The notes: a model not told the origin generated them from the sequence alone. Positions 11,173 through 45,499 are shown, counted from the first letter of the stretch. The stretch: 64,000 bases of DNA from Candidatus Hydrogenedens sp. (GCA_049968235.1 JBMFRC010000001.1:256001-320000), one strand, 5' to 3'. Made by a program: numbers and translations.

Positions 11173-12207
11173 ATGAAAAAAACAGGATTTACTTTAATTG
11201 AATTGCTTGTCGTCATAGCAATCATAGGTATTCTTGCGGCGATATTATTGCCCGCATTAGCACGTGCTCGTGAGGCGGCACGCAGGTCCAGTTGTCAGAA
11301 TAACCTCAAACAATGGGGATTGGTCTTTAAGATGTATTCAAATGAATCGAAGGGTGAACGTTTCCCACCATTAGAATTAGAAGTAGCACAGCGAGAGGAT
11401 AATGGACAATGGAATTTATTTATTGCAGCAGGTCCGAAAGTAAAGGCTATTTATCCTGAATATCTAACAGACCCATCCATTGCTATTTGTCCATCCGATT
11501 CTCAAGACACAGTTAACGATACATTAAAGGGCGCTAGTTTCCCATCATTAGGGATTACGCCAAACGATTTTCATTTTGGTTTCTATCTCGGTGGAGGGAC
11601 CGGGGTTAATGTGATTGATGCCAGTTATGCCTATTTCGGCTGGGTATTCGACCGCATGGGAGATAGAGCCGAAGATTTAGTCCCCATAAATTCACTTCCA
11701 ACCGAAGTGCAAATGTTTGTAAATCTCATCGGAAATGTAAATTTAACAGGGGACCAACTCGTTCCTGCACAACTTCCGCTTGCTATTGCTCAAATGGCTC
11801 TTAACCATCCAAAGGGTATAGCAGCGTTACAAGCAGCAAATTCACATTCAGCCCCAAGCCCGGATCAAATTGCAGATTTAAATAATGGGGTGGATGGTGA
11901 TGTTTCTGGCAATTTACTTGCAGGCTACGGTAATGGTGGTTCAAATACTGTCTATCGTCTTCGTGAAGGTATTGAACGGTTCATGATTACTGATATTAAT
12001 AATCCTTCAGCAACAGCCCAAGCACAGAGCAGTATTTTTATCATGCTTGACCAATTAGGAACTGGTGGAACAACTGTTCTTTTCAATCACATTCCCGGTG
12101 GATGCAATGTGTTGTATTTAGATGGACATGTCGAATTTATTCGCTACCCGACAAAACAACCCATAAATCAAGGGGTTGCAAATATTATGGCTCTCTTCTC
12201 TGCATAG
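11173..12207 (+). CDS. Prepilin-type N-terminal cleavage/methylation domain protein, DUF1559 / H-X9-DG family (type IV pilin-like)
   Basis: N-terminus [29 protein letters not shown] is the class III signal/pilin motif. The C-terminal [13 protein letters not shown] matches the H-X9-DG signature. This family is abundant in Planctomycetes/Verrucomicrobia-like genomes. Confidence 0.75.
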
Positions 12208-20300: not shown

Positions 20301-22769
20301 GCCTTCAAACCCACCATATATCTGAACATTACTTTCTAAAATCAGGGAACCATCTACATTTGCAGGCCCGCCCCATGGAATTGTTCTCAATTCATTATAC
20401 ACATATCCACCGCCATTTGGACCGCCCGCGACCCAGACTTCACCCGCTCCGTCTGCTGCAGCCGCATCTATTCCTTCTTGAATCGTCGCAAATGCAGTCT
20501 CCCAGGTCAAACCATTCGCAACACCGCCCGGTCTCGGTGCCATCTTATCTACACGATATACTGAACCCGTAGGCAAACCGACACCTAAATATACTTCCGA
20601 AGTATATACAAATGAGCCATAAGTTGCTGAGGAAATCTTGCACCGATACCAGCCCGTATCCGTCGGCTGAGCATTGGTTATCGGTAATGACACGGGTCCC
20701 GGACCGGGGATAACTGGACCAATGGCAACTCTGCCTTTCTCCCACTGGAACCGTAAATCTGCACCACCACCCGGTGATATATCGCCATCGCAGGTGAACA
20801 CATGACTATCGCCAATATCAATCATTGCACCTGACGGCTGTAAGGTTACGACTGGCGTGGGCGTGTTTACCTGAACACCCGCCGTACCAGTCGTTATAGA
20901 GTTACCAAATGTAACTGAGGTAATAACACATCGATACAAGCCTGCATCATTTGACGTCGCGGAACTCACATTATAGACATTATTACTATCACCATCAGAT
21001 ACATTCTCCCAGTTACTTCCGCTGAATGTTCTATCTATCTGCCATTGATAACTTAATGTCCCGCTATTTTGCGTCGCATTGCAGGTAATTGAAAATGGAT
21101 TCAACGCGGTAATTGGTGGAGTTGGGTTTACTGTCGGCTGTTGTGTTATGGTAATTGGCGGAGCCTGAACCACCACTTCTACCGTATTGGAATACATAGA
21201 AGCCTTAGTATACGGGTCCGCAATCAGGCAACGGAAGTACCTGGAGCCAATCCAGTCCACCGGATCGATTACCAATACACGCACATTTCCGCCACTCACC
21301 GGCGTAGTCACATTATCCGGGGTGCTACCATAATACCATTGATAATTGAACCGTGGCGTAGAAGGCGGTAAATTATTCGGTGTCCAGATAGTGCCATCAC
21401 CGTTATCCACTGCCACGCTTAATGTCCAGCTATCCTGACCCCAGGTCAACGGCGGACTGGTGCGACCAACTGGCTGGGTCTCCAACCATAATGTGCTCGG
21501 GAAGATGTTTTCACGCAATGCCCATTCCGCTACACCCTGGGCTATAGTCGCATAAACATTGTTCGAATTGAATGTATCAGAATAAGTCAAAAAGTTCGTC
21601 CTGCCATCACCGTTCAAATTACCCGTTGATGGAGCCACCGCTAAATAACTCGTCTGTGGCTGGAACTGGCTCGCCACAACATTGTTATTCGCAAAGTTTC
21701 TAATTGAATTACATACATCACCCTCCAATATGGTCACATGAAGGTCAATAGTACCAATAGGTGAATTCACAGGAACCGTGAAGTCCACCGTCGACGTATT
21801 CCCCCACGGATTGCACACAGTCTTTGACTCCGGCTCCGGTGCATATAATTCAGGATTAGCACCTATAACTATATTCTCAGGAGGAATAGAAGTTAACATT
21901 TTAACAAACTTAGGGTCTTCCATCCCTTTCGTCATATTGCGGATAATATCATCTAACAAATCATTAATAATAATTTGTATCATCTTTCCATACCAGGAAT
22001 ACCAATAATCCATAGCCTTCTGGTCGCCTAAGGTCATATATGCAGCAGTAAAATTAATTAGTGCATCATCCAATCTCGGGTCCGCATCCTCTGCTAAGGG
22101 ACCACCTTTCTCATTTTTCAAAAAAGAAGGCACATCAAAACTTACATCCTGAGATATTAAACATCCCAAACCCGCTTTTAATGTTAGCGTCATTGTTGTA
22201 TTTGTAGTTAAATTTACAGTTTTATCATTGCCACAGCCTGCTATATCTGCACGAAGCCGAACTTGTTGTATGGTAAGTTCTGTATTGCGTGCACGCGTGA
22301 TGTTATTCTGGAAAGCAGTGCGGATAGCATTAACGGTTCCAGAGGGTAAGTTTGTGTTTCTGTTCGGGTCGAGCACCGCATCAAGCAATGCAAAATACCG
22401 CGAATCCACTAACTTAAAACCAGTGCCCTTTGGCGTATAGGACCAAGCACCACTTGGACCAATATTCGTAGTTCCGTGGTCGCTCCTACCATCTGAACCA
22501 TCCCAATACGGACCATCCTGTCCCGTCACCTGACGCCAGTACGCGCTGTTAGCACCAGCACAGTCCTGCGTCCATTGCGGACACAAGCCTAACGACACAA
22601 GCATGTCGTCTATGATATTGTCCATTTCACTTGCCATTTGTTCTAAACTGTTCCAATACTCCGTCCCGTTGTAATACATATACGGGTGCGCCTGTGCCGG
22701 CATGCTTACAAACATAAAAACAAATAACGCCAGCACACACAAGGTTGGGATAAATAATTTTTTACTCAC
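17301..22769 (-). CDS. Giant secreted surface protein (1822 aa) with Ig-like repeats, Pmp-like parallel beta-helix repeats and a C-terminal hydrophobic anchor
   Basis: GTG start with SD GAGAAGGG, then signal peptide MSKKLFIPTLCVLALFVFMFVSMPAQA. Multiple Ig-like repeats (..YRCVISDD.., ..WYRCKISS..). The central region has GGAI/GGGAI and FxxN motifs (FYDN, FYNN, FVGN, FWQN) typical of chlamydial Pmp-type beta-helix repeats. HYR-like NITVDLDETxxxxI repeats are present. The C-terminus is GSGIPVAGAVSIALVSALSALAGVFTLRRRQR. Confidence 0.7.
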   Translation of the reverse strand: MSKKLFIPTLCVLALFVFMFVSMPAQAHPYMYYNGTEYWNSLEQMASEMDNIIDDMLVSLGLCPQWTQDCAGANSAYWRQVTGQDGPYWDGSDGRSDHGTTNIGPSGAWSYTPKGTGFKLVDSRYFALLDAVLDPNRNTNLPSGTVNAIRTAFQNNITRARNTELTIQQVRLRADIAGCGNDKTVNLTTNTTMTLTLKAGLGCLISQDVSFDVPSFLKNEKGGPLAEDADPRLDDALINFTAAYMTLGDQKAMDYWYSWYGKMIQIIINDLLDDIIRNMTKGMEDPKFVKMLTSIPPENIVIGANPELYAPEPESKTVCNPWGNTSTVDFTVPVNSPIGTIDLHVTILEGDVCNSIRNFANNNVVASQFQPQTSYLAVAPSTGNLNGDGRTNFLTYSDTFNSNNVYATIAQGVAEWALRENIFPSTLWLETQPVGRTSPPLTWGQDSWTLSVAVDNGDGTIWTPNNLPPSTPRFNYQWYYGSTPDNVTTPVSGGNVRVLVIDPVDWIGSRYFRCLIADPYTKASMYSNTVEVVVQAPPITITQQPTVNPTPPITALNPFSITCNATQNSGTLSYQWQIDRTFSGSNWENVSDGDSNNVYNVSSATSNDAGLYRCVITSVTFGNSITTGTAGVQVNTPTPVVTLQPSGAMIDIGDSHVFTCDGDISPGGGADLRFQWEKGRVAIGPVIPGPGPVSLPITNAQPTDTGWYRCKISSATYGSFVYTSEVYLGVGLPTGSVYRVDKMAPRPGGVANGLTWETAFATIQEGIDAAAADGAGEVWVAGGPNGGGYVYNELRTIPWGGPANVDGSLILESNVQIYGGFEGYWGMQEDIRAKRAVRNVVTIIDGSVSRGGSPAYHVIVVGSSTQPAVNVRIDGFDIRGGRASGVAGDYHTWRGAGLYNWISQPVIANCTFYDNIAAVSGGAISNESYGGSSANATIINCVFYNNRANRLLDSAGNPMRGGGAIFNNMADPTIKFSTFVGNTVDNTTGGLYGLTSSAIFNYNTTGSGQVHSSIFWQNVPGCIETFCPASNPSCAGLQILESDTSQTVDPLFNNVFPPPTFKLTNASPFVDASTLTSPNYDIQGVSRPQDSASDRGAYELVKQPMNLVCKNISVDLDETGNQIIPANSLLDIANSTVPGGIWKIVVSGQENVNLTCGDRPSTQRTVTVIDYAGSQGTCDATITVNDVTNPTAVCANITVYLNSSGQYTLTASELDGGSTDNCGPLSLSIPPTTYTCANIGQNQVLLTVTDGANLQNTCLATVMVEDNLPPTVVTKNITVDLDETNQATIVPADVDNGTTDNCSIDHLELDRTTFTCADRLTPQTVNLTAYDVNGNQASATAQVTVRDVTPPEIQLRGASYVLLVANIDCYVEEGAFWTDNCDGTGEAVVGGDAVPSNCPLLPSDAGEYVVTYDYTDLNGNVAEQKTRVVKIIVNQPPEITLLGDNPMSIDCKEEYVEPGYVAQDPEDGDLTEEVIVTSTLNIAEPGTYQIEYKVIDHDPENPQTTIVYRTVEVVDNDLPVVTLQGANPLPWKLGTPWVEPGYTADDPCWGGVTVLTEIVGTVDVNTSGMYVITYTPKDYSGHTGTPVERTVYVGEYLQYVAQPQNADAYVDSSAFDLRATISGGIFIPGYDTYEWKRNGSVVDSGSVEFGENTFILTVDPATLTPGTYMYQVEITDLVNTHVSSQARVRIANHISITGDISNAEVVPGDNFSMSVTAQGGIGTLHYQWQKSDGEGGKAWVNLTNGGNISGATSNTLVFTPFNEEDVGQYRCVISDDLTDVIYSSVATLTKGSGIPVAGAVSIALVSALSALAGVFTLRRRQR

Positions 22770-25743: not shown

Positions 25744-26595
25744 TTATTTCTTATGCTTTTTAACTTGTTTTTTACGGATGGTATCCATTCTTCTTGTTTT
25801 AATAATTTGTATCGCAATAATTCCTGAAATAAATATTAGAACAAAAATCAAAACAAGGATAATCTTTATCCCTTTCGCATTAGAAGAGGTCGTTTCTTCA
25901 ATAGGCGGTGAAGCAGGGGAACTATGGTTTGAATCTGAGGAAGTGTTATTGCCCGGAAAAAGAATTTCTCCGGGAAGGACATTACAATTGACAGCGTTCC
26001 CTTCCGGGTCTGCAAGAACAGTATTAGAAAGTTTGACAAGTTGCCTGCCCGCAAGCGTGCTGTCTTCTATTGTAATGCTAACAAAAAGGATAGTTCCTTC
26101 GGGTATAGATTGTTGATTAAGTCCTGCTATGATAGTTCGGTAGGTCTGATTTTTGATCTGGTTATAAGATACCATTTTGTTAGATTTCTTTGCAGATTCC
26201 GCCACGGACATGTTTGTAATTTTTGTCCCTGCGGGAATAATAATATCGAATTGTATGCCCGAAATGCGTTCAGAGGGTTCTATTTTCAGGTCAATAGGCA
26301 AGAGAATATCCCTCTGTCCCTGCTCACACTTGACTTTTAGTGGACATAATGTTGCGGGATAGGCAAAAAGGGGAAATATAAAACCCGTCAAAAGAAGGAT
26401 AAGTATCTTAGAAAATAGACTATTTTGTTTCCTTTTATCTATTTCTTTCTTAAATAGAATTTCTGTTCCTTTATCACAGCAGATACAGTGGTCAGGGTTA
26501 TTAATAATGTGATAGTTATGGATACGAAAATTAGTAATGAATAGTCTGTTGGTAATATATTTTCTTTTGCAATATTTGTCTCTATCGTTGTACAT
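25744..26595 (-). CDS. Cohesin-like domain protein with N-terminal TM/signal anchor and C-terminal TM anchor
   Basis: Cohesin-like segment ISGIQFDIIIPAGTKI...YRTIIAGLNQQSIPEGTILFVSITI, a Ser-rich linker, then a C-terminal TM helix with KK-rich tail. The start is uncertain because the ORF overlaps the upstream gene by 157 nt. Confidence 0.5.
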   Translation of the reverse strand: MYNDRDKYCKRKYITNRLFITNFRIHNYHIINNPDHCICCDKGTEILFKKEIDKRKQNSLFSKILILLLTGFIFPLFAYPATLCPLKVKCEQGQRDILLPIDLKIEPSERISGIQFDIIIPAGTKITNMSVAESAKKSNKMVSYNQIKNQTYRTIIAGLNQQSIPEGTILFVSITIEDSTLAGRQLVKLSNTVLADPEGNAVNCNVLPGEILFPGNNTSSDSNHSSPASPPIEETTSSNAKGIKIILVLIFVLIFISGIIAIQIIKTRRMDTIRKKQVKKHKK

Positions 26596-27743
26596 TCGTT
26601 GCTCCTTCCCCTGGTTGGAGATATATTGGATATATTTAGAGCAAAATAAGGATTTTGTAAGGTTTTGTTTGTATCATCAAGGGAAACTATGCGTATATCT
26701 GAATTATTTTCGGTAGTAGCGTTCATAGTAGGCAATGAAGATTTCTCCACAGTTTTTGTGAACGGAGATGGATGCGTCCCAGCAGTCCTACCTATAGGAG
26801 TTGGATTCAAATTTTCATTTTGAGGAACTTTGTTCTCAGTAATCAGGATAGTTCTATCATCAGGTATATATTGCTTTGCCCAAAAGTTACTTTTTTCGGG
26901 AATAGGCATAAGTTTCGGTGCATTCACATTATGTTTTTTATTTTCTACTTTCCTGCTATGTAAGAATGTATCTTCATTGTGGATATAGGGATTGCTTATG
27001 TTCGTTACAAAACCTGAAGAAGAGGTTGATGAGGATGCTTTTGTAGATGATGATTGAGAATATATGGGTCGGGTTTCCGTATTTGCTACTCTTTGGATAA
27101 CGGGTTTTACCTCTGTATTCATATCAGTAATATTTGTGTTTACATCGGATTGATTGTCTATTTGATGGTTCATTTCTGTTCCGGTAGAAGTGGTGGAATT
27201 ATTTGTATCGGAAGGAGGGATTTCTTCTGCAGGATTGTTATCTGTTGAAGTTTCTGAACCTTGACTACTGTTAACAGTTGCGGATACAGGTTGTGCCTGT
27301 GGAGAGGAAAGTTTTACCTGTAAGATATTAAATCCTGGTCCATTTGTCCCCTCTGACAGAGCATTAAACTGCACTGTGAATAATTCTCCACTGGGAATTG
27401 GATGGTTATTCAATCCGATGATAAGAACTCGCAAAAGACCATACATTTTCGCAACTTGTAATTGTTTACTACTTGCCCATAAAGTGTCTCCCGGGAATGC
27501 AGATACAAATTCCCAATTCTGGGCATCATATCCACATTCCAATTGGATTCCACTTACTTCTTCTTCAGGCAAGACTGATAAAAATACATGAACAACGACC
27601 ATCGTTTCTCTTTGTTCCAGACTTGTGTCTAACATTGCAGGGAAAGATGAAATGTGTAAAAGCAAACATACTGCAAAGGGCAAAAAGAAACTCTTTTGCC
27701 TCATTTTAATAGATGATGTATATTTTCGCAATATGTTGCCCAC
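26439..27743 (-). CDS. Cohesin-like domain protein with long S/T/N-rich linker and C-terminal TM anchor
   Basis: Signal peptide (MRQKSFFLPFAVCLLLHISSFPA), cohesin-like segment VSGIQLECGYDAQNWEFVSAFPGD...LLRVLIIGLNNHPIPSGELFTVQFNA, about 250 aa of low-complexity S/T/N linker, then a C-terminal TM helix and KK tail. Confidence 0.5.
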   Translation of the reverse strand: MGNILRKYTSSIKMRQKSFFLPFAVCLLLHISSFPAMLDTSLEQRETMVVVHVFLSVLPEEEVSGIQLECGYDAQNWEFVSAFPGDTLWASSKQLQVAKMYGLLRVLIIGLNNHPIPSGELFTVQFNALSEGTNGPGFNILQVKLSSPQAQPVSATVNSSQGSETSTDNNPAEEIPPSDTNNSTTSTGTEMNHQIDNQSDVNTNITDMNTEVKPVIQRVANTETRPIYSQSSSTKASSSTSSSGFVTNISNPYIHNEDTFLHSRKVENKKHNVNAPKLMPIPEKSNFWAKQYIPDDRTILITENKVPQNENLNPTPIGRTAGTHPSPFTKTVEKSSLPTMNATTENNSDIRIVSLDDTNKTLQNPYFALNISNISPTRGRSNECTTIETNIAKENILPTDYSLLIFVSITITLLITLTTVSAVIKEQKFYLRKK

Positions 27744-27753
27744 AATATTTTCC

Positions 27754-28542
27754 CTATGTTGGACCTAAGGCAAACCCATCCTCCGTGCCAACTTCAGGAT
27801 GATAGGAACCATAGTTAAAAATTTGTATAAGTCGTAAGATTTCATATAACTGAATTTTCCAATCAGGACTTCCATAATAATCGCTATTGTGTGGAGAACA
27901 AGTTTGATTCTTACTCGTTACGCTGTATCCATCCTCCGTATCACACGAACAGTAGTATTCTTTAGAATTGTAGAATTGGATTACACGCAATAATTCGGTT
28001 AATGAAATAATCCAATCACGATTCGAGTCTGCACTGTGAAAAACACTCCTTTGAACGGTCAAATTCCCATTGATTAGAGAGACGGGAACAGAAGTTCCGA
28101 TAGGACTGGATAATATCGCACGACTTAATGAAACATCATAAATCCCCGCGGGAGTAGATGCACATACCTGTAAGGTTATCTGAGCAATACTCCCGCTGGG
28201 GATAATATTCTGGTTAAGTCCTGCAATGATAACTCGAGCCTGACCAGGAGTTACAATATTGTATTGCACCTGTTTTTGAGCCGAATTAGATGACGCACCT
28301 GCAATCACTGTTATTAGTTCACAGATATCAGGATTGTAGAGAATATCAAACTGGATAGCACTTACAGATTCACTACTGGACACGGTAAGCATTGCATTTA
28401 ACACAATTTGAGTTCCACTGTCCGCATACCCGCTTTCAATAGATAATTCTGCGGGATATGCGGAAGAGAAATACGAAAAATATCCGGATATAAATGCCAT
28501 CACAATAATCCTGATACTTCTGTAACTATCCAGTTTTCGCAT
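27754..28542 (-). CDS. Cohesin-like domain protein with C-terminal duplicated dockerin-like repeats (adaptor-like)
   Basis: Signal peptide, then cohesin-like VSAIQFDILYNPDICELITVIAG...ARVIIAGLNQNIIPSGSIAQITLQV, which resembles the CDFVYSYDPNVLEIIEIEPG / ITKDGVFATIV pattern of clostridial cohesins. The C-terminus has two repeats, DSNRDWIISLTELLRVIQFYN and GSPDWKIQLYEILRLIQIFN. Confidence 0.5.
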   Translation of the reverse strand: MRKLDSYRSIRIIVMAFISGYFSYFSSAYPAELSIESGYADSGTQIVLNAMLTVSSSESVSAIQFDILYNPDICELITVIAGASSNSAQKQVQYNIVTPGQARVIIAGLNQNIIPSGSIAQITLQVCASTPAGIYDVSLSRAILSSPIGTSVPVSLINGNLTVQRSVFHSADSNRDWIISLTELLRVIQFYNSKEYYCSCDTEDGYSVTSKNQTCSPHNSDYYGSPDWKIQLYEILRLIQIFNYGSYHPEVGTEDGFALGPT

Positions 28543-28545
28543 AAG

Positions 28546-29844
28546 TTATTCTTTGTTTTGATTTTCTGCGTAATCCAGTATTCCATTTCCATTTGCGTCA
28601 ATGTCCTGTTCATTAGGGATGCCATCTCCATCCCAATCCTGTTCAGTGCGGTTATCGGGGTCTAAATAATTAGGGATACTATCTCCATCACTATCTTCAA
28701 TAAAATCAGGGATACCGTTGTTGTTCAAGTCAAATTTGCAATGGTTCCCATTACAAATCTGATTTTCGATAAAATCCGGTATATGATTTCGGTTTGTATC
28801 TGTAACTTCGGGTATTTGCAAACTATCCAGCCATGCCATAATTTGCTGTTGGAGTTCAGTCTGGAACTGATTCATAATAAGGTTCGTGATGGACTCCGGT
28901 CCCGGTACTCCTAACTGGATAAGTGAATTTTTAATCATTTGTTGAAAGCATTGAATCAGAGGTAAAACCATCTCCGGATAGCCATCTATCTCAATCCGAT
29001 TTAATGAAGGGGTAAGAAGAGTATCCTTATGGGGTTGGATACATGTCCCTAAACTCTGGAGTAGCGTGTTTATTAAATTTTCATTAAATCCAAGTGTTTG
29101 TAAATAGGGAATTGACAGAAGTTGGGTTTTAATCTCGTTAATGAGTTGTTCATAAATATCCGGAATTTGATTACCATTTTCATCCATATCTGGCAGAGGC
29201 TCGGCAATTCTCCCCAATAAGTTCCTTAAATCGGGAATTGGGATATTGGATTGCTGTAAATTCAGATTGTTCAACTGTAAAGGCTTACCCGTGGATAATT
29301 GTAATAACGGGATAGCTAATGAATTTAAGGGACCTATCGGAGCAAGGATAGGAAAAGATTGTAAGCCATTTCCCGAATTGCTTATCATTCCAAAAGCCCA
29401 TGTGGTCCCAACAGGAAGAAGCATCTGGAATATCCCATCCGGAGATATTTCTGAAGTTATTATCCTGCCATCTTCTGAAAGGGCTACAAATAATGGAGAT
29501 GTTCCCTGTTGTTCATTGCCGAATGTAGAGGCTATTTGTCCTTCCAGAGGTTGGACCAATCCACCAGTTCCTAACACAGAATTTATCAGTGTTTGAATAT
29601 CAAGAACATCCACCATGTCATTCTGGTTAACATCTGCCATAGGAACAGGGGCATTGATTCCGATAGCGATATTAATTCCGTTCTGGACATCCAGAATATC
29701 AATTACTCCATCTTTATTAACATCGCCCGGTATAGCGTCAATTGCTCCCCATGATATAAATGGGAAAAGCAATAGGGCAAAGATTATAAATCTCTGGAGT
29801 AAATATATTTTCCCGCTTTGGGTTGTTTTTAACTTGTTATTCAT
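28546..29844 (-). CDS. Secreted dockerin-domain protein with C-terminal thrombospondin type-3-like Ca-binding repeats
   Basis: Signal peptide, then two canonical dockerin repeats (GDVNKDGVIDILDVQNGINIAIG and ADVNQNDMVDVLDIQTLINSVLG). The C-terminus has Asp/Asn-rich TSP3-like repeats (DTNRNHIPDF..., DLNNNGIPDFIEDSDGDSIPNYLDPDN..., DWDGDGIPNEQDIDANGNGILDY). Confidence 0.55.
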   Translation of the reverse strand: MNNKLKTTQSGKIYLLQRFIIFALLLFPFISWGAIDAIPGDVNKDGVIDILDVQNGINIAIGINAPVPMADVNQNDMVDVLDIQTLINSVLGTGGLVQPLEGQIASTFGNEQQGTSPLFVALSEDGRIITSEISPDGIFQMLLPVGTTWAFGMISNSGNGLQSFPILAPIGPLNSLAIPLLQLSTGKPLQLNNLNLQQSNIPIPDLRNLLGRIAEPLPDMDENGNQIPDIYEQLINEIKTQLLSIPYLQTLGFNENLINTLLQSLGTCIQPHKDTLLTPSLNRIEIDGYPEMVLPLIQCFQQMIKNSLIQLGVPGPESITNLIMNQFQTELQQQIMAWLDSLQIPEVTDTNRNHIPDFIENQICNGNHCKFDLNNNGIPDFIEDSDGDSIPNYLDPDNRTEQDWDGDGIPNEQDIDANGNGILDYAENQNKE

Positions 29845-29925
29845 ATCGAAAATCCTTCTAAAAAATATTATTTACTAATTTTATGAAACTTTATAGATAA
29901 TAAGAGAGAAATGACAAGATATGTG

Positions 29926-30417
29926 TTAGCAAACGGGAGGGGCATGACAGAGAAAGCCTGTTAGAAAGTAAGGTTCTGTTTTAAGTCTGCGACCTCTATC
30001 CTCCGGGATAGGGGACAAACGAGTGGCTTTGTACTCTGTTTCTTTGACAAAACCTGAATAAGGCTTGAAAATGTTACCTTTGCAAAAATTGGATATTGAT
30101 TGGCTATTAACTTGAACAAAAGCGACAGGAACCTGTGACCTCTTTCCCTGCCATTTCTTTTCCAACCGATTAAATAAAATCTGTAAATCTATAACATCAA
30201 TCTTATTGTCTCCATTCTGGTCTCCTATAGAAGCAAGAGAATTTCTCTGGAGTAGGGAATGCTGAAGTAAATTCAGGTCCAGAATGTCAATTTTCCCATC
30301 AAGATTTAAATCACCCGTTTTGTAATCACAAACATTTTGATTGGATAAACAAAAGGCGAACAACACCCCGCAGGAAAGAAGTAAATAAAATATTTTCTTG
30401 CCAATTAAAAACATCAT
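29926..30417 (-). CDS. Small secreted dockerin-domain protein
   Basis: Signal peptide, then two dockerin repeats (GDLNLDGKIDILDLNLLQHSLLQ and GDQNGDNKIDVIDLQILFNRLEK), followed by an approximately 80-aa C-terminal region of unknown function. Confidence 0.5.
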   Translation of the reverse strand: MMFLIGKKIFYLLLSCGVLFAFCLSNQNVCDYKTGDLNLDGKIDILDLNLLQHSLLQRNSLASIGDQNGDNKIDVIDLQILFNRLEKKWQGKRSQVPVAFVQVNSQSISNFCKGNIFKPYSGFVKETEYKATRLSPIPEDRGRRLKTEPYFLTGFLCHAPPVC

Positions 30418-31066: not shown

Positions 31067-32794
31067 TTATTTATCTGTTTGTGGGGTATAACGGAAAGGA
31101 ATAATTGTAAATGCCATGTCGGATTGAGGAAGTAAATCCGCAAAGAAAATACCGTGTGCTTCTTTTATCAGTAATCGTCGTCCACATACATGACACATAT
31201 ATTCGGAGCCTGGTTCAATATCCTCTGCAATCTTGATATGGGTACTACAGAATGGGCAAGCAAGACTGCGACTATCTCGTTTGTGGTAATCTTGAAGTAG
31301 CGAATGAATTTTTCCCATGTTATATGCTTCTATCAGGGCATCTACCATTTCAGGGTCTAATTGGCTACTCTTTGCGGATATAATTTTTTCGATAGCAATT
31401 TCCGGGTCTAACCCTTTTCGGTAAGGACGATTGCTGGTCATGGCATCCAGCGTATCTGCAACCGCTATTAATCGTCCTTCAGGTGGAATTTCTTTACTCT
31501 TCAACCCATAAGGGTAGCCTTTCCCATCGTATCGTTCATGGTGATATAGACAGTAAGGAATAATCGGCTGGAATAATGCAATGTCTCTCAGTAAATCGGC
31601 TCCTCGTAGGGGATGTATTTTCATTTTTTCAAATTCTTCATCAGTCAATTGCCCTGGTTTTCTCAGGATAGCATCATCTACTGCAATTTTACCGACATCA
31701 TGTAGCACACCTCCCATATATACTTCTTCTATTTTTTCTTCGGACCAACCTAATACTTTCGCTATCTCTATAGCGAAATTTGTTACCCGCCATGTGTGTC
31801 CTATTGTGTAATGGTCTCGCAATTCTACTGCATTAGCAATAGTTGTCAATGTGTCTTTATAACTTTGCTTTATCATTTCGATATATTGTGCGTTACGAAG
31901 GGCTATTGATGCGGGTCCTGCTATAGCCACCAGCATCTCAAGGTCTTCTTGACTGAAAGCACGAGAGGTCCCTCGCGTATCTACATAAATTACACCTAAA
32001 CATTGATTCTGATATACAAGAGGAACACACATAGCGGAAGCAATACGATGTCGAATAATACTGCCTGAAATGTTTTTAAATCGGCTATCTTCTCCTGCGT
32101 TTTGAGTAATTAAAGCCTCTTTCTTCTCAAAAGCACGATTCACAATGGTAGCACTGATTGAAAATTCTTCCACTGCTGTTTTTGTATGGATAAATTCAGG
32201 GACAAGCCGTTTTTTTCGTTTATCCCATAATAAAATGGCTCCATTGTGAGCGGGTAGATGAGAAAAAATCTGTTCTATAATTTTTGAAAATAAGCTCTTT
32301 AAATTATTCTCACTGACGATTATTTGATTTGCGTTATAAACAGCCCGTAAACGATTTTGTATGGACTTTATTTGTTCCTGGGCGACTTTTCCCTGAGGGA
32401 CTTGAAAAAGTGTTTCATGGATGAGACTTAAATCTGCACTTTCAGTGTCTTCATCTAAGGTCGCATCAAAACGCACAGGAGATTTTTCTACATCAGAAGA
32501 AGTTTCTATAACTTCATAGCGAATTAATTGTGTTCCCACACGAAAAACATCTCCCGGTTTAAGCAGATACTCTGTTATTTTTTGATTTCCTACATAAGTT
32601 CCATTAACACTATTTAAATCTTTTAGTAAAGGGCCATCCTCCGTAGGCTCTACTACCGCATGCTTTCTTGACACTTTTGGGTCATCAAGAGTAATAACAT
32701 TTTCCTGTCCTCTACCGATGGTTAAAACCTCATCCGCAGGGAAGGAAACACCTTTTTTTGTTCCCGTTAGGACTACAATATTTGCATCTTTCAT
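31067..32794 (-). CDS. FHA-GAF-HD-GYP c-di-GMP phosphodiesterase with C-terminal zinc-ribbon
   Basis: N-terminal FHA (GRGQENVITLDDPKVSRKHAVV...NGTYVGNQKI), a central GAF-like region, an HD-GYP domain (HD...HHERYDGKGYPYGL) and a C-terminal CPFC...CHVCG motif. Confidence 0.75.
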   Translation of the reverse strand: MKDANIVVLTGTKKGVSFPADEVLTIGRGQENVITLDDPKVSRKHAVVEPTEDGPLLKDLNSVNGTYVGNQKITEYLLKPGDVFRVGTQLIRYEVIETSSDVEKSPVRFDATLDEDTESADLSLIHETLFQVPQGKVAQEQIKSIQNRLRAVYNANQIIVSENNLKSLFSKIIEQIFSHLPAHNGAILLWDKRKKRLVPEFIHTKTAVEEFSISATIVNRAFEKKEALITQNAGEDSRFKNISGSIIRHRIASAMCVPLVYQNQCLGVIYVDTRGTSRAFSQEDLEMLVAIAGPASIALRNAQYIEMIKQSYKDTLTTIANAVELRDHYTIGHTWRVTNFAIEIAKVLGWSEEKIEEVYMGGVLHDVGKIAVDDAILRKPGQLTDEEFEKMKIHPLRGADLLRDIALFQPIIPYCLYHHERYDGKGYPYGLKSKEIPPEGRLIAVADTLDAMTSNRPYRKGLDPEIAIEKIISAKSSQLDPEMVDALIEAYNMGKIHSLLQDYHKRDSRSLACPFCSTHIKIAEDIEPGSEYMCHVCGRRLLIKEAHGIFFADLLPQSDMAFTIIPFRYTPQTDK

Positions 32795-33123: not shown

Positions 33124-34350
33124 CTAATCTTTGTTCCCAAATTCATATTTTATGCCTGCAGATAAACAATGTTCCCAGGGTTCAATATCCCTCTTTTGAT
33201 GTTCACTGTCATATTCATTGGAAAGGGTAAGTTCTACACTCATGTTTTTAGAAACGGGGGTTGATAAATTTGTCAAAGAATTAATACGGTAATAGTCAAT
33301 GCGTTCCAAACTGGGCTCAAATGTTAGGTCATGAGAAAGTTCAGAACTCATAATTTTCCGTGTATATTTACTTCCAATTTTCAAACTCGTGAAATCATTG
33401 GTTGTATTTTCTGCATTTAATGGATTTAAAACTTTTATACTTCCACCAAGAATTCCGCCTAAGTTTGCAATATCTGCTGGATTTTGAATTAATCTTTGAG
33501 AAGAAGTAATTATCTGATTTAGCCCATCCTGAATTTGTTCCTGCTTAACTTCACTTTTCTGAAATGGGACATAGGGGAGCCATTCTTCATGGGTTAACAT
33601 GAGAGCTCCTTCCATAGACCAGGTCTGACGCGGTTGGGATATAATCTCATAACCTGTTCCTCCTCCAATCTGTCCCCTCAATCCTAATTTTCTACCTTCA
33701 TCTCGTTCTGCACCCATATCTGTGTAAATATACCACTTTTCTTCTGGATAGTATTGGTAGCGAAATTTTCCGTCATATCTCCGTGTATTAATTGCATTTT
33801 CAACCTCGCCATAAGCCCCTGATAATTTCATTTCTATGAGGTCCTTTTTCCTTTTCCCGGATACGGTTATACTGCTTTCAAAATTTGTGGTATCTGTTGT
33901 TCCCTTTTGAAGTGATGCAAGGACTTTACCACTTCCCGACCATTTTCTCTTATCTTTTTGTTCTTGCGTTTCTTGTGTTGCTGAATTTTCGGGTACAGGT
34001 GTGATTTTTTGTATATTTTCCCAGGGAATAGACTGTTTCTTTCCTTTTTCTATAATAAACAGCATATCACTTGTAAAATTCATTTTACCCTGAATTACTT
34101 CTCCATTCAGGAGAGATACTTCCCAGGGACCCTCTTGCTCAATTTTCTTTATATCTACTCGCTTTATATTAATAGTTCCCAGAATATCATTATTTAATGT
34201 TAAATGGTCATTTGTTATCTTAAGGATTTGCCCAGTAAGGGTATCACCATTTGTTAATTCAATATGGTCTGAGTAACCAAATGAAACTTTTAATATAGAA
34301 AAAAGCATAATAATAAAAAATATAAATAAACTATGTTTTTTTGATTTCAT
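33124..34350 (-). CDS. DUF481-like putative outer-membrane beta-barrel protein (YdiY-like)
   Basis: Signal peptide, then N-terminal repeats of LTNGDTLTGQI / LLNGEVIQGKM type followed by a long beta-strand-rich region, which matches the DUF481 family architecture. Confidence 0.45.
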   Translation of the reverse strand: MKSKKHSLFIFFIIMLFSILKVSFGYSDHIELTNGDTLTGQILKITNDHLTLNNDILGTINIKRVDIKKIEQEGPWEVSLLNGEVIQGKMNFTSDMLFIIEKGKKQSIPWENIQKITPVPENSATQETQEQKDKRKWSGSGKVLASLQKGTTDTTNFESSITVSGKRKKDLIEMKLSGAYGEVENAINTRRYDGKFRYQYYPEEKWYIYTDMGAERDEGRKLGLRGQIGGGTGYEIISQPRQTWSMEGALMLTHEEWLPYVPFQKSEVKQEQIQDGLNQIITSSQRLIQNPADIANLGGILGGSIKVLNPLNAENTTNDFTSLKIGSKYTRKIMSSELSHDLTFEPSLERIDYYRINSLTNLSTPVSKNMSVELTLSNEYDSEHQKRDIEPWEHCLSAGIKYEFGNKD

Positions 34351-34552: not shown

Positions 34553-35668
34553 ATGCAAATGTTATATGACACATGGCTTTTATGGTCTATCACTTTTTTA
34601 TTTCTTGCTTTACTTGTAGTTTCTTTTATCATTGGTATTTATAAGAAGAAGAAAGAAGAAAAAAAACGCATTTTAAGAGACTGGGAACGGGTCCGCTATA
34701 TTTTGAAGGAGAAGGAATTAAATGAGAAGGAAATAAAACTTTTAGAAGAAATCATACATAAATATGATGCACAAAATCCGCTGGGAGTGACAACTTTTCG
34801 TCAGCATTTTGTCCGCTGTGTATATAAATATATAATAAATGCACGAAAATATCTCGACTTTGAGGAATTGGATGAAGTCGGGGAGATACTTCGTGAAATT
34901 AGTATTCGTTTAGGACACGATTATATTCCTTATGGACAACGTATATACACCACCGTAGAACTTTATCAGAATCAACCATTATGGATGTCGCCTCAGGGAG
35001 AAAATCCATCTTTATGGAGAAAAGGGAATGTTGTTGATATAAATGGTGCTTTTTTTCGAGTTGCTCCATATACACCGCAGGATAGGCTTCCTATAAATTT
35101 AGGGCAATATATATCATTCAAGATGTGGCGGGAAGATGATGCACGGTATCAATTCTCTACTGTGTTACGAAAGATAGAATTAGACCCTGAAGTATATGTA
35201 TTTGACCATGCTTTTTCTTTAGAACGTTTCCAGTCTCGTGCCTATTTTCGTGTTCGATTGGACAAACCTATAGAGGCAGATGTTGTTACGATAGACAAAA
35301 AATATGATTTAAATCAGATTAGTGCGGAAGATGTCTCCTGTAAAATTATTTTCTCAACACGGGCTCGTATTGTTAATCTAAGTGCTGGAGGTTCTGCTAT
35401 ACTGATTGATAGAGATATTGAAGAAGGATTATTTCTTAGAATACTTCTTGATATGGAAGATGATAAGGAACCAAAGTTTATTACTTTGTATATGCGTATT
35501 ATTAATAAAGTAAATGTGGCATTGGGAAGATATATATATCGTGGAGCCTTCATGGGATTAACAGATGAAAATCGTGACCGTCTCGCTAAATATGTATTCC
35601 GCCAACAACCTCCTGTATCCTCTGCACTTCGTGAACAACAGAAAAAAGATGAAGAGAAGAAAATATAA
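34553..35668 (+). CDS. PilZ-domain (c-di-GMP-binding) membrane-anchored protein
   Basis: N-terminal TM helix and coiled-coil. The C-terminal region has PilZ signatures RAYFR (RxxxR) and NLSAGGSAIL (D/NxSxxG). Confidence 0.6.
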   Translation: MQMLYDTWLLWSITFLFLALLVVSFIIGIYKKKKEEKKRILRDWERVRYILKEKELNEKEIKLLEEIIHKYDAQNPLGVTTFRQHFVRCVYKYIINARKYLDFEELDEVGEILREISIRLGHDYIPYGQRIYTTVELYQNQPLWMSPQGENPSLWRKGNVVDINGAFFRVAPYTPQDRLPINLGQYISFKMWREDDARYQFSTVLRKIELDPEVYVFDHAFSLERFQSRAYFRVRLDKPIEADVVTIDKKYDLNQISAEDVSCKIIFSTRARIVNLSAGGSAILIDRDIEEGLFLRILLDMEDDKEPKFITLYMRIINKVNVALGRYIYRGAFMGLTDENRDRLAKYVFRQQPPVSSALREQQKKDEEKKI

Positions 35669-43939: not shown

Positions 43940-45499
43940 CTATTCCGGGAATACACCAATGGGGACAGATATCGATTGGTTAATTATCGCCTGTATATCG
44001 CTTGCTCCCAAGCCATTACCATCAACATCTATATCTTTATCAATTGGTGTAATGCCCAAAATGACCTCTACTGCAAGGTCTACATCTTCATCGTTTACTT
44101 TACCATCCGAATTAATGTCACCATCACTCAGGGGAATGTCGCGACGGGTTGCCCATCCATCAACAACCTCAATTCCATTTACACGGTAAGGAATATATCC
44201 TGGTGCTGTAAAAGCAAGGTTGTATGTCCCGGGCAATAATAGCCGATGATAATTTCCTACACGCGGATGACTGAAAACAGGTTGCGTGTTGCCCTGCACT
44301 AAAACCTTTGTCCAGACAGGGTCTCCTGTATTGCGGTCATATACCAATCCACGAATTCCACGTAAAACGCACTCTAAATACGATAACATGGATTCACGGT
44401 TATTATTCCATAATGTCGGTATCCATGACCCAGCCGGGAATTTTGTGTTAAATAATTCTATCGTCATTTCAATACATCCCGTAAATCGATAATTCCAATC
44501 TTGCATTCCACCTGTAACGACATACCACTCCGCACCATTTGTTATTCCGCCGGGAAATTGAGAATTAGTGTACATGGGTGTGTTATGCATAGCATATTGC
44601 GTGGCTATCCACTTCATTAGTGCATCATCCGGTGTCGGTGCCTCAACACCACTGGGACCTCCATCATTGTCATATGGATAATTTACAACCATTGCACCTG
44701 TATGAAAATTTGCAGATAAACTAAAATTGTGTTCTAATGACCAACGCATAATATGCTGAATCTCGGGCTGCCTCGTTTCAATAGATATATTACCTCCATC
44801 ATAATAGAATGTATTGAAATCAGTAGGATAATTGGGAAAAGAACGGTTTAAATCTACGCCATTAGCATTAAACCGTGATACCGCTTCGCGTCCATCCGGA
44901 TTCATCAAAGGCACAATCCATATAGAAACCTCATCAACAACATTTTTAATCCTTGTATCTGTGGAATAGTTTTGCAGGAGATACTCCGCAAAAAACAGAC
45001 ATAACTCTGTCCCGATGGGTTCATCCCCATGTATTGTAGCAATATACTTAAACTCAGGCTCATCTTCTTCTATATCCGGATTATCCGTAATGTGAAGTGC
45101 CCACAATTCTCGTCTCTGCACAGATTGCCCCAATGACATTAAACGGGTAAGAGTCGGATATGTATCGGTAAGGTTTTGTAAAAATTGTGTTAATTCTGCG
45201 TAGTTGTGATACCCTGTAGGTGTTTTCTCTAAGTAAGGCGATGGGTCTGTCCCTATCACTTGTGGTTCAAAACCTTCATTTTGCAATTTTTTCAATGCAT
45301 ACTTCGGAATATAAACACGAGCATAATTCCCATCATACGAATCAACAGAATACCCTTGTTGCTCAAGATAATCAATGTCTGATAGGCTCTTAATTTTTAC
45401 CTGCACGATATACCATATGGGTAAGGATGCTTTCTGCGCAAAAACTTCAATATCGGAGAGAACAACAAATAACAATAGAATTAATACTAATTTTTTCAC
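43940..45499 (-). CDS. M14-family zinc carboxypeptidase with C-terminal dockerin domain
   Basis: Signal peptide, then an M14 zinc motif HGDEPIG...E and downstream His. The C-terminus carries two dockerin repeats (GDINSDGKVNDEDVDLAVEVILG and IDVDGNGLGASDIQAIINQSI). Confidence 0.7.
   Translation of the reverse strand: MKKLVLILLLFVVLSDIEVFAQKASLPIWYIVQVKIKSLSDIDYLEQQGYSVDSYDGNYARVYIPKYALKKLQNEGFEPQVIGTDPSPYLEKTPTGYHNYAELTQFLQNLTDTYPTLTRLMSLGQSVQRRELWALHITDNPDIEEDEPEFKYIATIHGDEPIGTELCLFFAEYLLQNYSTDTRIKNVVDEVSIWIVPLMNPDGREAVSRFNANGVDLNRSFPNYPTDFNTFYYDGGNISIETRQPEIQHIMRWSLEHNFSLSANFHTGAMVVNYPYDNDGGPSGVEAPTPDDALMKWIATQYAMHNTPMYTNSQFPGGITNGAEWYVVTGGMQDWNYRFTGCIEMTIELFNTKFPAGSWIPTLWNNNRESMLSYLECVLRGIRGLVYDRNTGDPVWTKVLVQGNTQPVFSHPRVGNYHRLLLPGTYNLAFTAPGYIPYRVNGIEVVDGWATRRDIPLSDGDINSDGKVNDEDVDLAVEVILGITPIDKDIDVDGNGLGASDIQAIINQSISVPIGVFPE

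What the first reader, a model, noticed from the sequence alone, without database searches (positions are those of the whole stretch)
25744..30417. Five-gene operon made only of cohesin-like and dockerin-like modules: a candidate non-cellulosomal surface assembly system
Five co-directional genes encode only assembly modules. Two are cohesin-like proteins anchored by C-terminal TM helices (25744-26595, 26439-27743). One is a cohesin-like protein carrying two C-terminal dockerin-like repeats, an adaptor architecture (27754-28542). One has a canonical two-repeat dockerin plus thrombospondin-type-3-like Ca-binding repeats (28546-29844). The last is a small stand-alone dockerin protein (29926-30417). 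I can recognise no catalytic (glycoside hydrolase) domain in the cluster, and the anchoring is by TM helix rather than SLH or sortase. In cellulosomes, cohesin-dockerin pairing assembles enzymes on scaffoldins. Here the same logic appears to be used for something else, with anchoring proteins, an adaptor and dockerin-tagged proteins, possibly with the dockerin-bearing M14 peptidase at 43940-45499 as cargo. The apparent PVC-like host (DUF1559 pilin, Pmp-like giant protein) would make this far from its classical Clostridia setting.
Basis: partly seen in the sequence, partly recalled or inferred. Interest (0 to 1): 0.85.

Follow-up and report, generated by a model that had tools for sequence, protein, structure and literature searches.

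The report
Membrane-anchored cohesin–dockerin cassette in Hydrogenedentota
Five neighbouring genes in an uncultured Gram-negative bacterium (Hydrogenedentota) encode three cohesin and two dockerin proteins with no recognisable enzyme, forming a conserved self-assembly kit of unknown purpose, and one of them carries a widespread protein tag that has no name.

Summary
All five minus-strand ORFs exist at the stated coordinates. Proteins 2 and 3 pass Pfam Cohesin, and protein 1 is a clear paralog of protein 3. Proteins 4 and 5 pass Pfam Dockerin_1. Structure models confirm a cohesin fold in protein 3 and a type-I dockerin fold in protein 4. Proteins 1 and 2 end in a TM helix with a basic tail. No catalytic domain was found.

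Corrections:
- The host is Candidatus Hydrogenedens (Hydrogenedentota), predicted Gram-negative, not PVC.
- Protein 3's C-terminal repeats are not a dockerin. They form a distinct, unnamed two-repeat module of ~95 aa (2,568 representative clusters) found at the ends of many unrelated extracytoplasmic proteins.
- Protein 4 also holds a ~250-aa conserved core with no solved counterpart.
- The M14 peptidase tail is only a sub-threshold dockerin.

The cassette recurs in at least 17 loci with changing flanks, is under purifying selection, and occurs once as a protein 4–protein 2 fusion.

Best reading: a non-enzymatic, Ca-dependent cohesin–dockerin assembly tethered to the cytoplasmic membrane, so probably periplasmic rather than on the surface. 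The binding pairs and the function are inferred, not shown. It is a new variant of the known non-cellulosomal cohesin–dockerin kind.

The parts
29926..30417 (-). Protein 5 (163 aa): leader, type-I dockerin (residues 35-85, window 30163-30315), and a ~80-aa tail ending in GFLCHAPPVC. First gene of the cassette.
   Evidence: Pfam Dockerin_1 37.7 bits. Leader at residues 2-20. Orthologs in L001, L004, L006 and L012; the tail is conserved only among close relatives. dN/dS 0.14.
28546..29844 (-). Protein 4 (432 aa): leader; type-I dockerin (residues 39-91, window 29572-29730); beta-sandwich (97-194, window 29263-29556); helical bundle (206-342, window 28819-29229); TSP3-like Ca-loop repeats (345-430, window 28555-28812). 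The most constrained gene of the cassette.
27754..28542 (-). Protein 3 (262 aa): leader, cohesin (residues ~31-164, window 28051-28452), and an unnamed two-repeat module (residues 165-262, window 27757-28050).
   Evidence: Pfam Cohesin 44.8 bits. AF2 model and Foldseek: top 50 hits all cohesins. The module has no Pfam, NCBIfam or PDB relative and gives hhalign probability 4% against the cassette's dockerin profile. The module family has 2,568 representative clusters.
26439..27743 (-). Protein 2 (434 aa): leader; cohesin (residues 44-150, window 27294-27614); ~235-aa T/N/S-rich low-complexity linker (160-395); C-terminal TM helix (402-420, window 26484-26540); short basic tail.
   Evidence: Pfam Cohesin 26.3 bits. 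BLASTP to protein 3: 32% over 93 aa, E 9e-10. TM helix and linker composition. Same architecture in L001, L004, L006, L008, L010 and L013.
25744..26595 (-). Protein 1 (283 aa): ~59-aa N-terminal extension; hydrophobic leader (residues 60-78); cohesin paralog (~80-211, window 25963-26358); short S/P-rich linker; TM helix (245-263, window 25807-25863); 20-aa basic tail.
   Evidence: BLASTP to protein 3's cohesin: 33% over 150 aa, E 3e-20. Custom cohesin HMM 91.8 bits. TM helix. The ATG preceded by AAGGAG is conserved in four loci.
26439..26612 (-). Overlap of the end of protein 2 with the start of protein 1 (157 nt, different frames), including protein 1's Shine-Dalgarno embedded in protein 2's codons.
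   Evidence: GGGAAGGAGCAACGAATG is identical in the window, L001 and L004 and encodes 'RGRSNEC', a conserved island within protein 2's otherwise poorly conserved linker. L006 keeps AAGGAG at a similar distance before its ATG.
43973..44125 (-). Possible cargo: dockerin-like tail of the M14 carboxypeptidase gene (43940-45499). Its link to the cassette is unproven.
   Evidence: Pfam Dockerin_1 12.2 bits, below cutoff. Custom dockerin HMM 18 bits, E 1.6e-4. phmmer against PDB: all 13 hits are dockerins or dockerin-bearing cellulases, best 3ul4_B E 1.3e-4.

Best explanation
The five genes form a self-contained, phylum-wide Hydrogenedentota cassette. It most likely builds a non-enzymatic, calcium-dependent protein assembly tethered to the cytoplasmic membrane.

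Proposed mechanism:
- All five proteins are exported by Sec.
- Proteins 1 and 2 stay in the membrane through a C-terminal TM helix. Their single cohesins are held at two heights, on a ~30-aa linker (protein 1) and a ~235-aa linker (protein 2).
- Protein 4 (dockerin, conserved sandwich/helical core, Ca-loop repeats) and the small protein 5 dock onto cohesins through their type-I dockerins.
- Protein 3 is a soluble cohesin carrying the unnamed two-repeat tag. Dozens of other extracytoplasmic proteins of the same lineage carry that tag, so protein 3 links the cassette to that tagged set.
- Because the phylum is predicted to be Gram-negative, the assembly probably sits in the periplasm on the inner membrane, not on the cell surface.

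Shown: domain identities, folds, TM anchors, conservation of the gene set, purifying selection, the protein 4-protein 2 fusion, and the distribution of the tag.

Inferred: that the cohesins bind these dockerins at all, which binds which, the cellular location, and the biological role. I favour an envelope scaffold or organiser, with protein 4 as the main structural passenger.
For: - Cohesin and dockerin identities rest on Pfam above cutoff, on paralogy and on fold.
- TM anchors with basic tails are present on proteins 1 and 2. They are conserved in distant cassettes L010, L011, L013 and L014.
- The same gene set and order occur in the window and in L001-L006, L010-L013, L089-L093, L097, L100 and L107, with unrelated flanking genes.
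- dN/dS is 0.07-0.29.
- L014 encodes leader-dockerin-protein 4 core-TSP3-like repeats-cohesin-linker-TM in one 954-aa ORF. This fusion of protein 4 with protein 2 places protein 4 on the membrane-tethered side.
- Both helices of protein 4's dockerin keep an invariant LD[VI]Q motif across 41 homologs, which fits a conserved partner.
- No enzyme domain is found in the cassette.
- The tag is terminal in 96 of 101 carriers. It sits on peptidases, FGE-sulfatase-like, LRR, PKD, GLUG and beta-helix proteins.
- At least 16 tag-bearing contigs share coverage and composition with a cassette contig of one assembly.
- Tag loci with the window's own composition also exist.
- The Gram-negative prediction comes from PMC11406978. 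A DUF481 outer-membrane-type protein and a DUF1559 pseudopilin lie in the window.
Against: - No binding was tested, and no complex prediction could be run.
- Proteins 2 and 4 only just pass their Pfam cutoffs.
- A pTM of 0.83 for protein 4 suggests its dockerin may pack against the rest of the protein. That could occlude a cohesin-binding face.
- Many tagged proteins look like surface or extracellular proteins (LRR, PKD and Ig-like giants), which sits awkwardly with a periplasmic location.
- The envelope type is a genomic prediction for an uncultured phylum.
- No conserved neighbour, regulator or expression data point to a role.
Confidence: 0.55

Rival explanations
1. The unnamed tag is a new dockerin-class module, and the cassette's cohesins are its receptors. 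The cassette would then be the hub of a genome-wide display system that holds dozens of tagged non-CAZyme proteins. Protein 3 would act as an adaptor.
For: - The tag has dockerin-like logic: an internal duplication in which each half is an EF-hand-type Ca loop followed by a helix.
- It is terminal in 96 of 101 carriers and multi-copy per population.
- It sits on a diverse secretome.
- It is fused to a cohesin in 17 of 101 carriers.
- The cassette has three cohesins, matched by two dockerins plus one tag.
- In L010 a further tagged protein lies next to the cassette.
Against: - No detectable homology to dockerins (hhalign probability 4%; no Pfam or PDB hit).
- 64 of 80 tag loci have no cohesin within 10 kb.
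- Tag loci span 35-70% GC, so several lineages carry it.
- L169 (61% GC, labelled Roseovarius) has three tandem tagged paralogs and no nearby cohesin. A non-cohesin partner is therefore equally possible.
Confidence: 0.25
2. The cassette is purely structural, for example an envelope tether, a matrix element or an adhesion element. Protein 4 would be the functional subunit and the cohesin-dockerin pairs would only hold it in place. The tag on protein 3 would be an independent envelope- or glycan-anchoring module.
For: - Protein 4 is the most constrained gene (dN/dS 0.07).
- Protein 4 has a large family.
- It models as one compact body, with a transthyretin/CnaB-like sandwich of the kind seen in pilins and adhesins, plus Ca-loop repeats.
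- It is fused to the membrane cohesin in L014.
- No enzymes are present.
Against: - This does not explain why three differently built cohesin proteins are kept.
- It does not explain why a second small dockerin protein is conserved.
- No peptidoglycan-, LPS- or glycan-binding domain was detected.
Confidence: 0.3
3. It is a minimal cellulosome-like degradative system. Its enzymes would be encoded elsewhere in the genome and recruited through type-I dockerins, such as the one on the M14 peptidase.
For: - The M14 tail resembles dockerins.
- Hydrogenedentes MAGs are described as enriched in CAZymes (PMC7038595).
Against: - No protein has more than one cohesin, and there is no CBM.
- No dockerin-bearing CAZyme lies in 64 kb. 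A regex scan for single dockerin-type Ca-loop/helix repeats picked up only protein 5, the M14 tail and two stray single matches; the dockerin HMM scan hit only proteins 4 and 5 and the M14 tail.
- The adjacent GH13 gene has no dockerin.
- Inner-membrane anchoring in a Gram-negative cell would keep the scaffold away from insoluble substrates.
Confidence: 0.1
4. It is a chance cluster of generic Ig-like and EF-hand proteins with no shared function.
For: Proteins 2 and 4 have marginal Pfam scores. Protein 1 has no Pfam hit.
Against: - Fold matches are specific to cohesins and dockerins.
- Gene set and order are conserved down to 29% identity of protein 4, with changing flanks.
- A fusion protein exists.
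- All five genes are under purifying selection.
Confidence: 0.02

Closest known systems
[quoted passage not shown]
   Same: - Single cohesin or dockerin modules occur in proteins with no cellulosomal context, in non-cellulolytic bacteria.
- Function is largely unknown.
- Binding is presumed to be Ca-dependent and pairwise.

The paper's content is from my own knowledge. It is not held in the library; I saw the reference in PMC2930009.
   Different: - Here three cohesin and two dockerin proteins form one conserved operon with fixed architectures.
- The cohesins carry C-terminal TM anchors in a predicted Gram-negative phylum.
- One cohesin is fused to a separate, widespread, unnamed tag.
- I found no description of this cassette in the searchable literature.
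Archaeoglobus fulgidus cohesin-dockerin pair (PDB 2xdh, 'non-cellulosomal cohesin')
   Same: It is a stand-alone type-I-like cohesin outside any cellulosome. 2xdh is among the top structural matches of protein 3 (rank 9, E 5.6e-12, target-normalised TM 0.80).
   Different: - It is archaeal.
- It is not organised as a multi-gene cassette with TM-anchored cohesins (my own knowledge).
- Sequence identity to protein 3 is only 21%.
Clostridial cellulosome anchoring and adaptor scaffoldins (e.g. C. thermocellum OlpA/OlpC; A. cellulolyticus ScaA/ScaB)
   Same: - The logic of cell-bound cohesin proteins capturing dockerin-bearing partners.
- Type-I cohesin and dockerin folds: 3ul4, 4dh2 and 5nrm are top hits.
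   Different: - No multi-cohesin scaffoldin, CBM or CAZyme cargo.
- No SLH or sortase anchoring; a TM helix is used instead.
- The host is Gram-negative.
- Dockerins sit at the N-terminus, right after the leader.
Clostridium perfringens toxin-complex cohesin / FIVAR-dockerin modules (PDB 2jh2, 2ozn, 2vo8)
   Same: Cohesin-dockerin pairing is used to join non-cellulolytic proteins. 2jh2 and 2vo8 are structural hits of protein 3. 2jnk/2ozn is the best sequence hit of protein 5 (E 0.033).
   Different: Those modules join large secreted glycoside hydrolases of a Gram-positive pathogen. Here no enzymes are joined and the cohesins are membrane-anchored.

Membership tests
Cohesin (Pfam PF00963) | Sequence match to the family model above the gathering score | tested here: met
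   Protein 3 scores 44.8 bits and protein 2 scores 26.3 bits against a cutoff of 24.1. Protein 1 has no Pfam hit but is a paralog of protein 3 (33% over 150 aa, E 3e-20), so it is a member by transitive homology only.
Cohesin (Pfam PF00963) | Nine-stranded beta-sandwich (jelly-roll) cohesin fold | tested here: met
   In the protein 3 AF2 model, residues 31-164 have block-mean pLDDT of 86-97 (mostly above 90). The top 50 Foldseek PDB hits are all cohesins, with target-normalised TM up to 0.84. Proteins 1 and 2 were not modelled.
Cohesin (Pfam PF00963) | Binds a dockerin in a Ca-dependent manner | not testable with these tools
   This needs recombinant binding assays or complex prediction.
Dockerin type I (Pfam PF00404): proteins 4 and 5 | Two ~22-residue Ca-loop-plus-helix repeats that match the family model above the gathering score | tested here: met
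   Protein 5 scores 37.7 bits and protein 4 scores 24.2 bits against a cutoff of 22.9. Every hit carrying a Pfam assignment in a search with the cassette's dockerin profile has PF00404.
Dockerin type I (Pfam PF00404): proteins 4 and 5 | Dockerin fold | tested here: met
Dockerin type I: C-terminal repeats of protein 3 | Match to the dockerin model or profile | tested here: not met
   No Dockerin_1 hit even at E<=10. hhalign against the cassette dockerin profile gives probability 4% with only 15 columns aligned. A PDB profile search finds nothing below E 0.3. It shares only the layout of a duplicated Ca loop plus helix.
Dockerin type I: tail of the M14 peptidase | Match to the dockerin model above the gathering score | tested here: inconclusive
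   Pfam gives 12.2 bits against a cutoff of 22.9. The custom HMM gives 18 bits, E 1.6e-4. All phmmer hits against PDB are dockerins or dockerin-bearing cellulases, best E 1.3e-4.
Thrombospondin type 3 repeat (Pfam PF02412): C-terminus of protein 4 | Match above the gathering score; DxDxDGxxDxxD Ca-binding repeats | tested here: inconclusive
   Pfam TSP_3 gives 11.7 bits against a cutoff of 25. Repeats of the type D.DGDGIP[ND]..D are visible in the alignment. One homolog is named 'thrombospondin type 3 repeat-containing' by NCBI.
Cellulosome | Scaffoldin with multiple cohesins and a CBM | tested here: not met
   Each cohesin protein has one cohesin and no CBM.
Cellulosome | Dockerin-bearing carbohydrate-active enzymes | tested here: not met
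   None lies in the cassette or the 64-kb window. The rest of the genome could not be surveyed.
Cellulosome | Cell-wall anchoring by SLH domains or sortase | tested here: not met
   No SLH domain or LPXTG signal is present. Anchoring is by a C-terminal TM helix.

The most novel reading that the evidence does not exclude
The unnamed ~95-aa two-repeat module on protein 3 is a new class of docking tag, analogous to but not homologous with dockerins. Its receptors are the cassette's membrane-anchored cohesins. Hydrogenedentota would then run a genome-wide, cellulosome-style recruitment system for dozens of non-CAZyme proteins (peptidases, sulfatase-maturase-like enzymes, adhesin-like repeats) inside or across a Gram-negative envelope.
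Probability: 0.2. Interest if true: 0.8.

Novelty: new variant of a known kind. Interest (0 to 1): 0.55.

Why it matters
What cohesin-dockerin pairs do outside cellulosomes has been an open question since they were catalogued in 2009. This cassette is a compact, conserved test case for it. It has five small proteins, three cohesins, two dockerins and one extra tag, so a 3x3 binding matrix would reveal its wiring.

Membrane-helix anchoring in a predicted Gram-negative phylum would put the chemistry in the periplasm. That setting has not, to my knowledge, been described for cohesin-dockerin assemblies.

Separately, the tag on protein 3 is a large family without a Pfam or NCBIfam model (2,568 representative clusters). 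It marks many extracytoplasmic proteins, so naming it and finding its partner would improve the annotation of thousands of proteins.

Tried and rejected
- PVC origin: rejected. Proteins 3 and 4 are 100% identical to proteins of a Candidatus Hydrogenedens MAG. All full-length protein 4 loci in the genome collection are Hydrogenedentota.
- Protein 3's C-terminus as a dockerin: rejected.
- A shorter protein 1 starting after protein 2's stop: rejected. No usable start codon lies there, and the upstream ATG with AAGGAG is conserved.
- Lipoprotein signal on protein 5: rejected by eye. The Cys is absent in the L004 ortholog.
- Sorting-signal reading of the C-terminal TM helices (PEP-CTERM or LPXTG type): rejected. 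No conserved motif precedes the helix, and the tails are long.
- AFDB fold search: unavailable.
- Homolog search with the dockerin profile, meant to list cargo: returned only short fragments.
- Rfam: found only a tRNA.
- Promoter and terminator scans: not above shuffled expectation.
- Peer et al. 2009: not held in the library.
- HD-GYP neighbour: seen only in the window, L011 and L107, too weak to use.
- Both structure-prediction jobs went to monomers, so no cohesin-dockerin complex could be modelled and the tag could not be folded on its own.

Full report
**1. Observation**

The five ORFs are present on the minus strand exactly as listed, transcribed in the order protein 5, 4, 3, 2, 1.

Pfam assigns these domains:
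- Protein 2: Cohesin, 26.3 bits (cutoff 24.1).
- Protein 3: Cohesin, 44.8 bits.
- Protein 4: Dockerin_1, 24.2 bits (cutoff 22.9).
- Protein 5: Dockerin_1, 37.7 bits.

NCBIfam adds nothing.

Protein 1 has no Pfam hit. Its domain is a clear paralog of protein 3's cohesin (33% identity over 150 residues, E 3e-20). Protein 2 also aligns to protein 3 (E 9e-10).

An AlphaFold model of protein 3 has block-mean pLDDT of 86-97 over residues 31-164. Its top 50 PDB matches are all cohesins, with target-normalised TM up to 0.84. They include the non-cellulosomal cohesin of Archaeoglobus fulgidus.

A hydrophobicity scan finds N-terminal leaders on proteins 1, 2, 4 and 5. It finds strong C-terminal TM helices with basic tails on protein 1 (245-263) and protein 2 (402-420).

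No catalytic domain appears in any of the five proteins.

**2. Corrections to the description**

(a) Protein 3's C-terminal repeats are real, and the two halves are visibly an internal duplication. Each half has an EF-hand-type loop, a helix (ELLRVIQFYN / EILRLIQIFN) and a TEDG hairpin. They are not a dockerin:
- There is no Dockerin_1 hit even at E<=10.
- hhalign probability against the cassette's own dockerin profile is 4%.
- A profile search finds no PDB relative.

(b) Protein 4 is more than dockerin plus Ca repeats. Between them lies a conserved ~250-residue core: a transthyretin/CnaB-like sandwich and a helical bundle with two conserved cysteines. This core has no whole-chain match among solved structures.

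(c) TSP_3 scores 11.7 bits against a cutoff of 25, so 'TSP3-like' is a resemblance only.

(d) The 157-nt overlap of proteins 2 and 1 is genuine. An AAGGAG Shine-Dalgarno and an ATG are embedded in protein 2's reading frame. They are conserved in four loci, where they form an island of conservation ('RGRSNEC') in an otherwise variable linker.

**3. Host**

Proteins 3 and 4 are 100% identical to proteins of a Candidatus Hydrogenedens sp. MAG.

The DUF1559/N-methyl pseudopilin that suggested PVC is present. The giant neighbouring protein is built of Ig-like repeats, not Pmp repeats.

A survey of 179 genomes predicts the phylum to be Gram-negative, with the Raetz LPS pathway in more than 94% of genomes (PMC11406978). 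Neither that paper nor another genomic description of the phylum mentions cohesins or dockerins.

**4. Conservation**

The same gene set, in the same order, occurs in relatives whose protein 3 is 80%, 68% and 51% identical. The flanking genes differ.

It persists in loci where protein 4 is only 35% and 29% identical (L010 and L011). Annotation with custom HMMs finds it in at least 17 fetched loci.

Variants:
- L011 lacks the long-linker cohesin.
- L013 has four cohesin genes.
- L014 encodes leader, dockerin, protein 4 core, Ca repeats, cohesin, a ~250-aa P/T/S linker and a TM helix in one 954-residue ORF. That is protein 4 fused to protein 2.

C-terminal TM anchors on the cohesin proteins are kept in all variants. 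Pairwise dN/dS against L001 is 0.14, 0.07, 0.21, 0.29 and 0.21 for proteins 5 to 1.

Cohesin-plus-tag genes also occur alone (L007, L009, L094, L095).

The surroundings of the window's cassette are housekeeping or unrelated genes (GH13, FHA-GAF-HD-GYP, DUF481, PilZ, sugar-nucleotide genes). No RNA element was found apart from one tRNA.

**5. The tag on protein 3**

An exhaustive search with residues 165-262 finds 2,568 representative clusters at E<=1e-3 and 1,807 at E<=1e-10. Some proteins carry up to four copies.

From 80 metagenomic loci I extracted 101 carrier ORFs:
- The tag is C-terminal in 83, N-terminal just after a leader in 13, and internal in 5. Only 17 carriers are cohesin proteins.
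- 64 of the 80 loci have no cohesin within 10 kb.

A Pfam census of 54 carriers shows these domains: GLUG, TrAA12-like, PASTA, LRR, FGE-sulfatase, PKD, papain- and trypsin-type peptidases, CHRD, beta-helix, CotH, BACON and purple acid phosphatase.

In one assembly, at least 16 tag-bearing contigs share 8-11x coverage, 51-57% GC and tetranucleotide correlation of 0.78-0.95 with a cassette-bearing contig. This is consistent with one population carrying many tagged proteins and one cassette.

Tag loci with the window's own composition also exist (r>=0.95; L122, L137, L161, L165).

Tag loci span 35-70% GC. One 61%-GC contig, labelled Roseovarius, has three tandem tagged paralogs and no nearby cohesin. 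The tag is therefore not confined to one lineage, and its partner need not be a cohesin.

**6. Mechanism**

I commit to a Ca-dependent, non-enzymatic cohesin-dockerin assembly tethered to the cytoplasmic membrane by proteins 1 and 2. Proteins 4 and 5 would be the docked partners. Protein 3 would be a soluble cohesin that shares a tag with a large extracytoplasmic protein set.

The two anchors hold their cohesins on very different linkers (about 30 and about 235 residues), which suggests two positions within the envelope.

A cleaved leader plus a C-terminal helix with a positive tail gives an N-out, C-in topology. In a Gram-negative cell the cohesins would then face the periplasm.

The fusion in L014 supports physical association of protein 4 with the long-linker anchor. 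The invariant LD[VI]Q motif in both dockerin helices of protein 4 suggests a conserved partner and possibly two equivalent binding faces.

All pairings, the location and the role are inferences. Confidence is 0.55.

**7. Rivals**

- The tag is the true docking module for the cassette's cohesins, making the cassette a genome-wide recruitment hub (0.25).
- The cassette is a purely structural envelope or adhesion element centred on protein 4 (0.3; this overlaps with the main reading).
- It is a minimal degradative cellulosome with its enzymes encoded elsewhere (0.1).
- It is a chance cluster (0.02).

**8. The M14 peptidase**

Its tail reads as two Ca-loop/helix repeats, but scores 12.2 bits against a Pfam cutoff of 22.9. 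The custom dockerin HMM gives 18 bits. All PDB sequence hits are dockerins or dockerin-bearing cellulases, best E 1.3e-4. It is a plausible but unproven cargo.

A regex scan of all ORFs for single dockerin-type Ca-loop/helix repeats picked up protein 5 (both repeats), the first repeat of the M14 tail and two stray single matches; it missed protein 4. The dockerin HMM scan of the window hit only proteins 4 and 5 and the M14 tail. So no further dockerin-type module was found in the window.

**9. Comparison and novelty**

Cohesin- and dockerin-like modules outside cellulosomes are known (Peer et al. 2009, seen in the reference list of PMC2930009; content from my own knowledge). Examples have solved structures from A. 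fulgidus and C. perfringens.

The system fails every defining feature of a cellulosome that could be tested: no multi-cohesin scaffoldin, no CBM, no dockerin-bearing CAZyme, and no SLH or sortase anchor.

Three things are new here:
- a fixed, phylum-wide five-gene cassette made of one-cohesin and one-dockerin proteins;
- TM-helix anchoring in a predicted Gram-negative lineage;
- the fusion of a cohesin to a large unnamed tag family.

I found no description of this cassette in the searchable literature. I rate it a new variant of a known kind, with interest 0.55.

Noticed in passing
window 27757-28050 (-), protein 3 residues 165-262; also L096-L168: An unnamed ~95-aa two-repeat module (HSAD.N.D..I.L.ELLRVIQFYN..GYHC..TEDGY ... 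C.PH.SDYNPQDW.I.L.ELLRLIQFFN.GGYH.CP..TEDGFCPG) with no Pfam, NCBIfam or PDB relative. The family has 2,568 representative clusters. It sits at the termini of diverse extracytoplasmic proteins and is present in many copies per population.
   Followed up: yes
window 26439-26612 (-): The protein 1 gene overlaps the end of the protein 2 gene by 157 nt in another frame. Its AAGGAG Shine-Dalgarno and ATG are embedded in protein 2's codons and conserved in L001, L004 and L006. Protein 1 therefore has an unusual ~59-residue N-terminal extension before its hydrophobic leader.
   Followed up: partly
L014 3501-6362 (+): A natural fusion in one 954-aa ORF of a 61%-GC Hydrogenedentes MAG contig: leader, dockerin, protein 4 core, TSP3-like repeats, cohesin, P/T/S-rich linker and a C-terminal TM helix.
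   Followed up: yes
window 31067-32794 (-) and 34553-35668 (+); L011 9815-10942; L107 7962-8969: An FHA-GAF-HD-GYP protein lies directly upstream of the cassette, with a PilZ protein nearby. An HD-GYP-type gene also lies next to the cassette in L011 and 5 kb from it in L107, but not in the other cassette loci. This is a weak hint of a c-di-GMP link.
   Followed up: partly
window 17301-22769 (-): A 1,822-aa protein built of Bact_surface_Ig-like and Ig_3 repeats. It carries no cohesin, dockerin or tag.
   Followed up: partly
window 42314-43921 (-): A 535-aa ORF directly downstream of the M14 peptidase gene has no Pfam family at E<=10 and no hit to any cassette HMM.
   Followed up: no
L007 7001-7762, L009 5318-6145, L094, L095: Stand-alone cohesin-plus-tag genes (paralogs of protein 3) lie outside any cassette. 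In L007 and L009 they sit next to the same FtsJ / SMC_N / LDcluster4 / beta-CASP gene group.
   Followed up: partly
L169 6726-11110 (+): Three tandem ~370-aa paralogs each end in the tag, on a 61%-GC contig labelled Roseovarius pacificus. They lie beside a sulfatase and a 1,577-aa protein, with no cohesin within 10 kb. The taxonomic label was not verified.
   Followed up: partly
window 11173-12207 (+) and 33124-34350 (-): A DUF1559/N-methyl pseudopilin and a DUF481 protein (an outer-membrane beta-barrel family, from my own knowledge). Both are consistent with a Gram-negative envelope.
   Followed up: no
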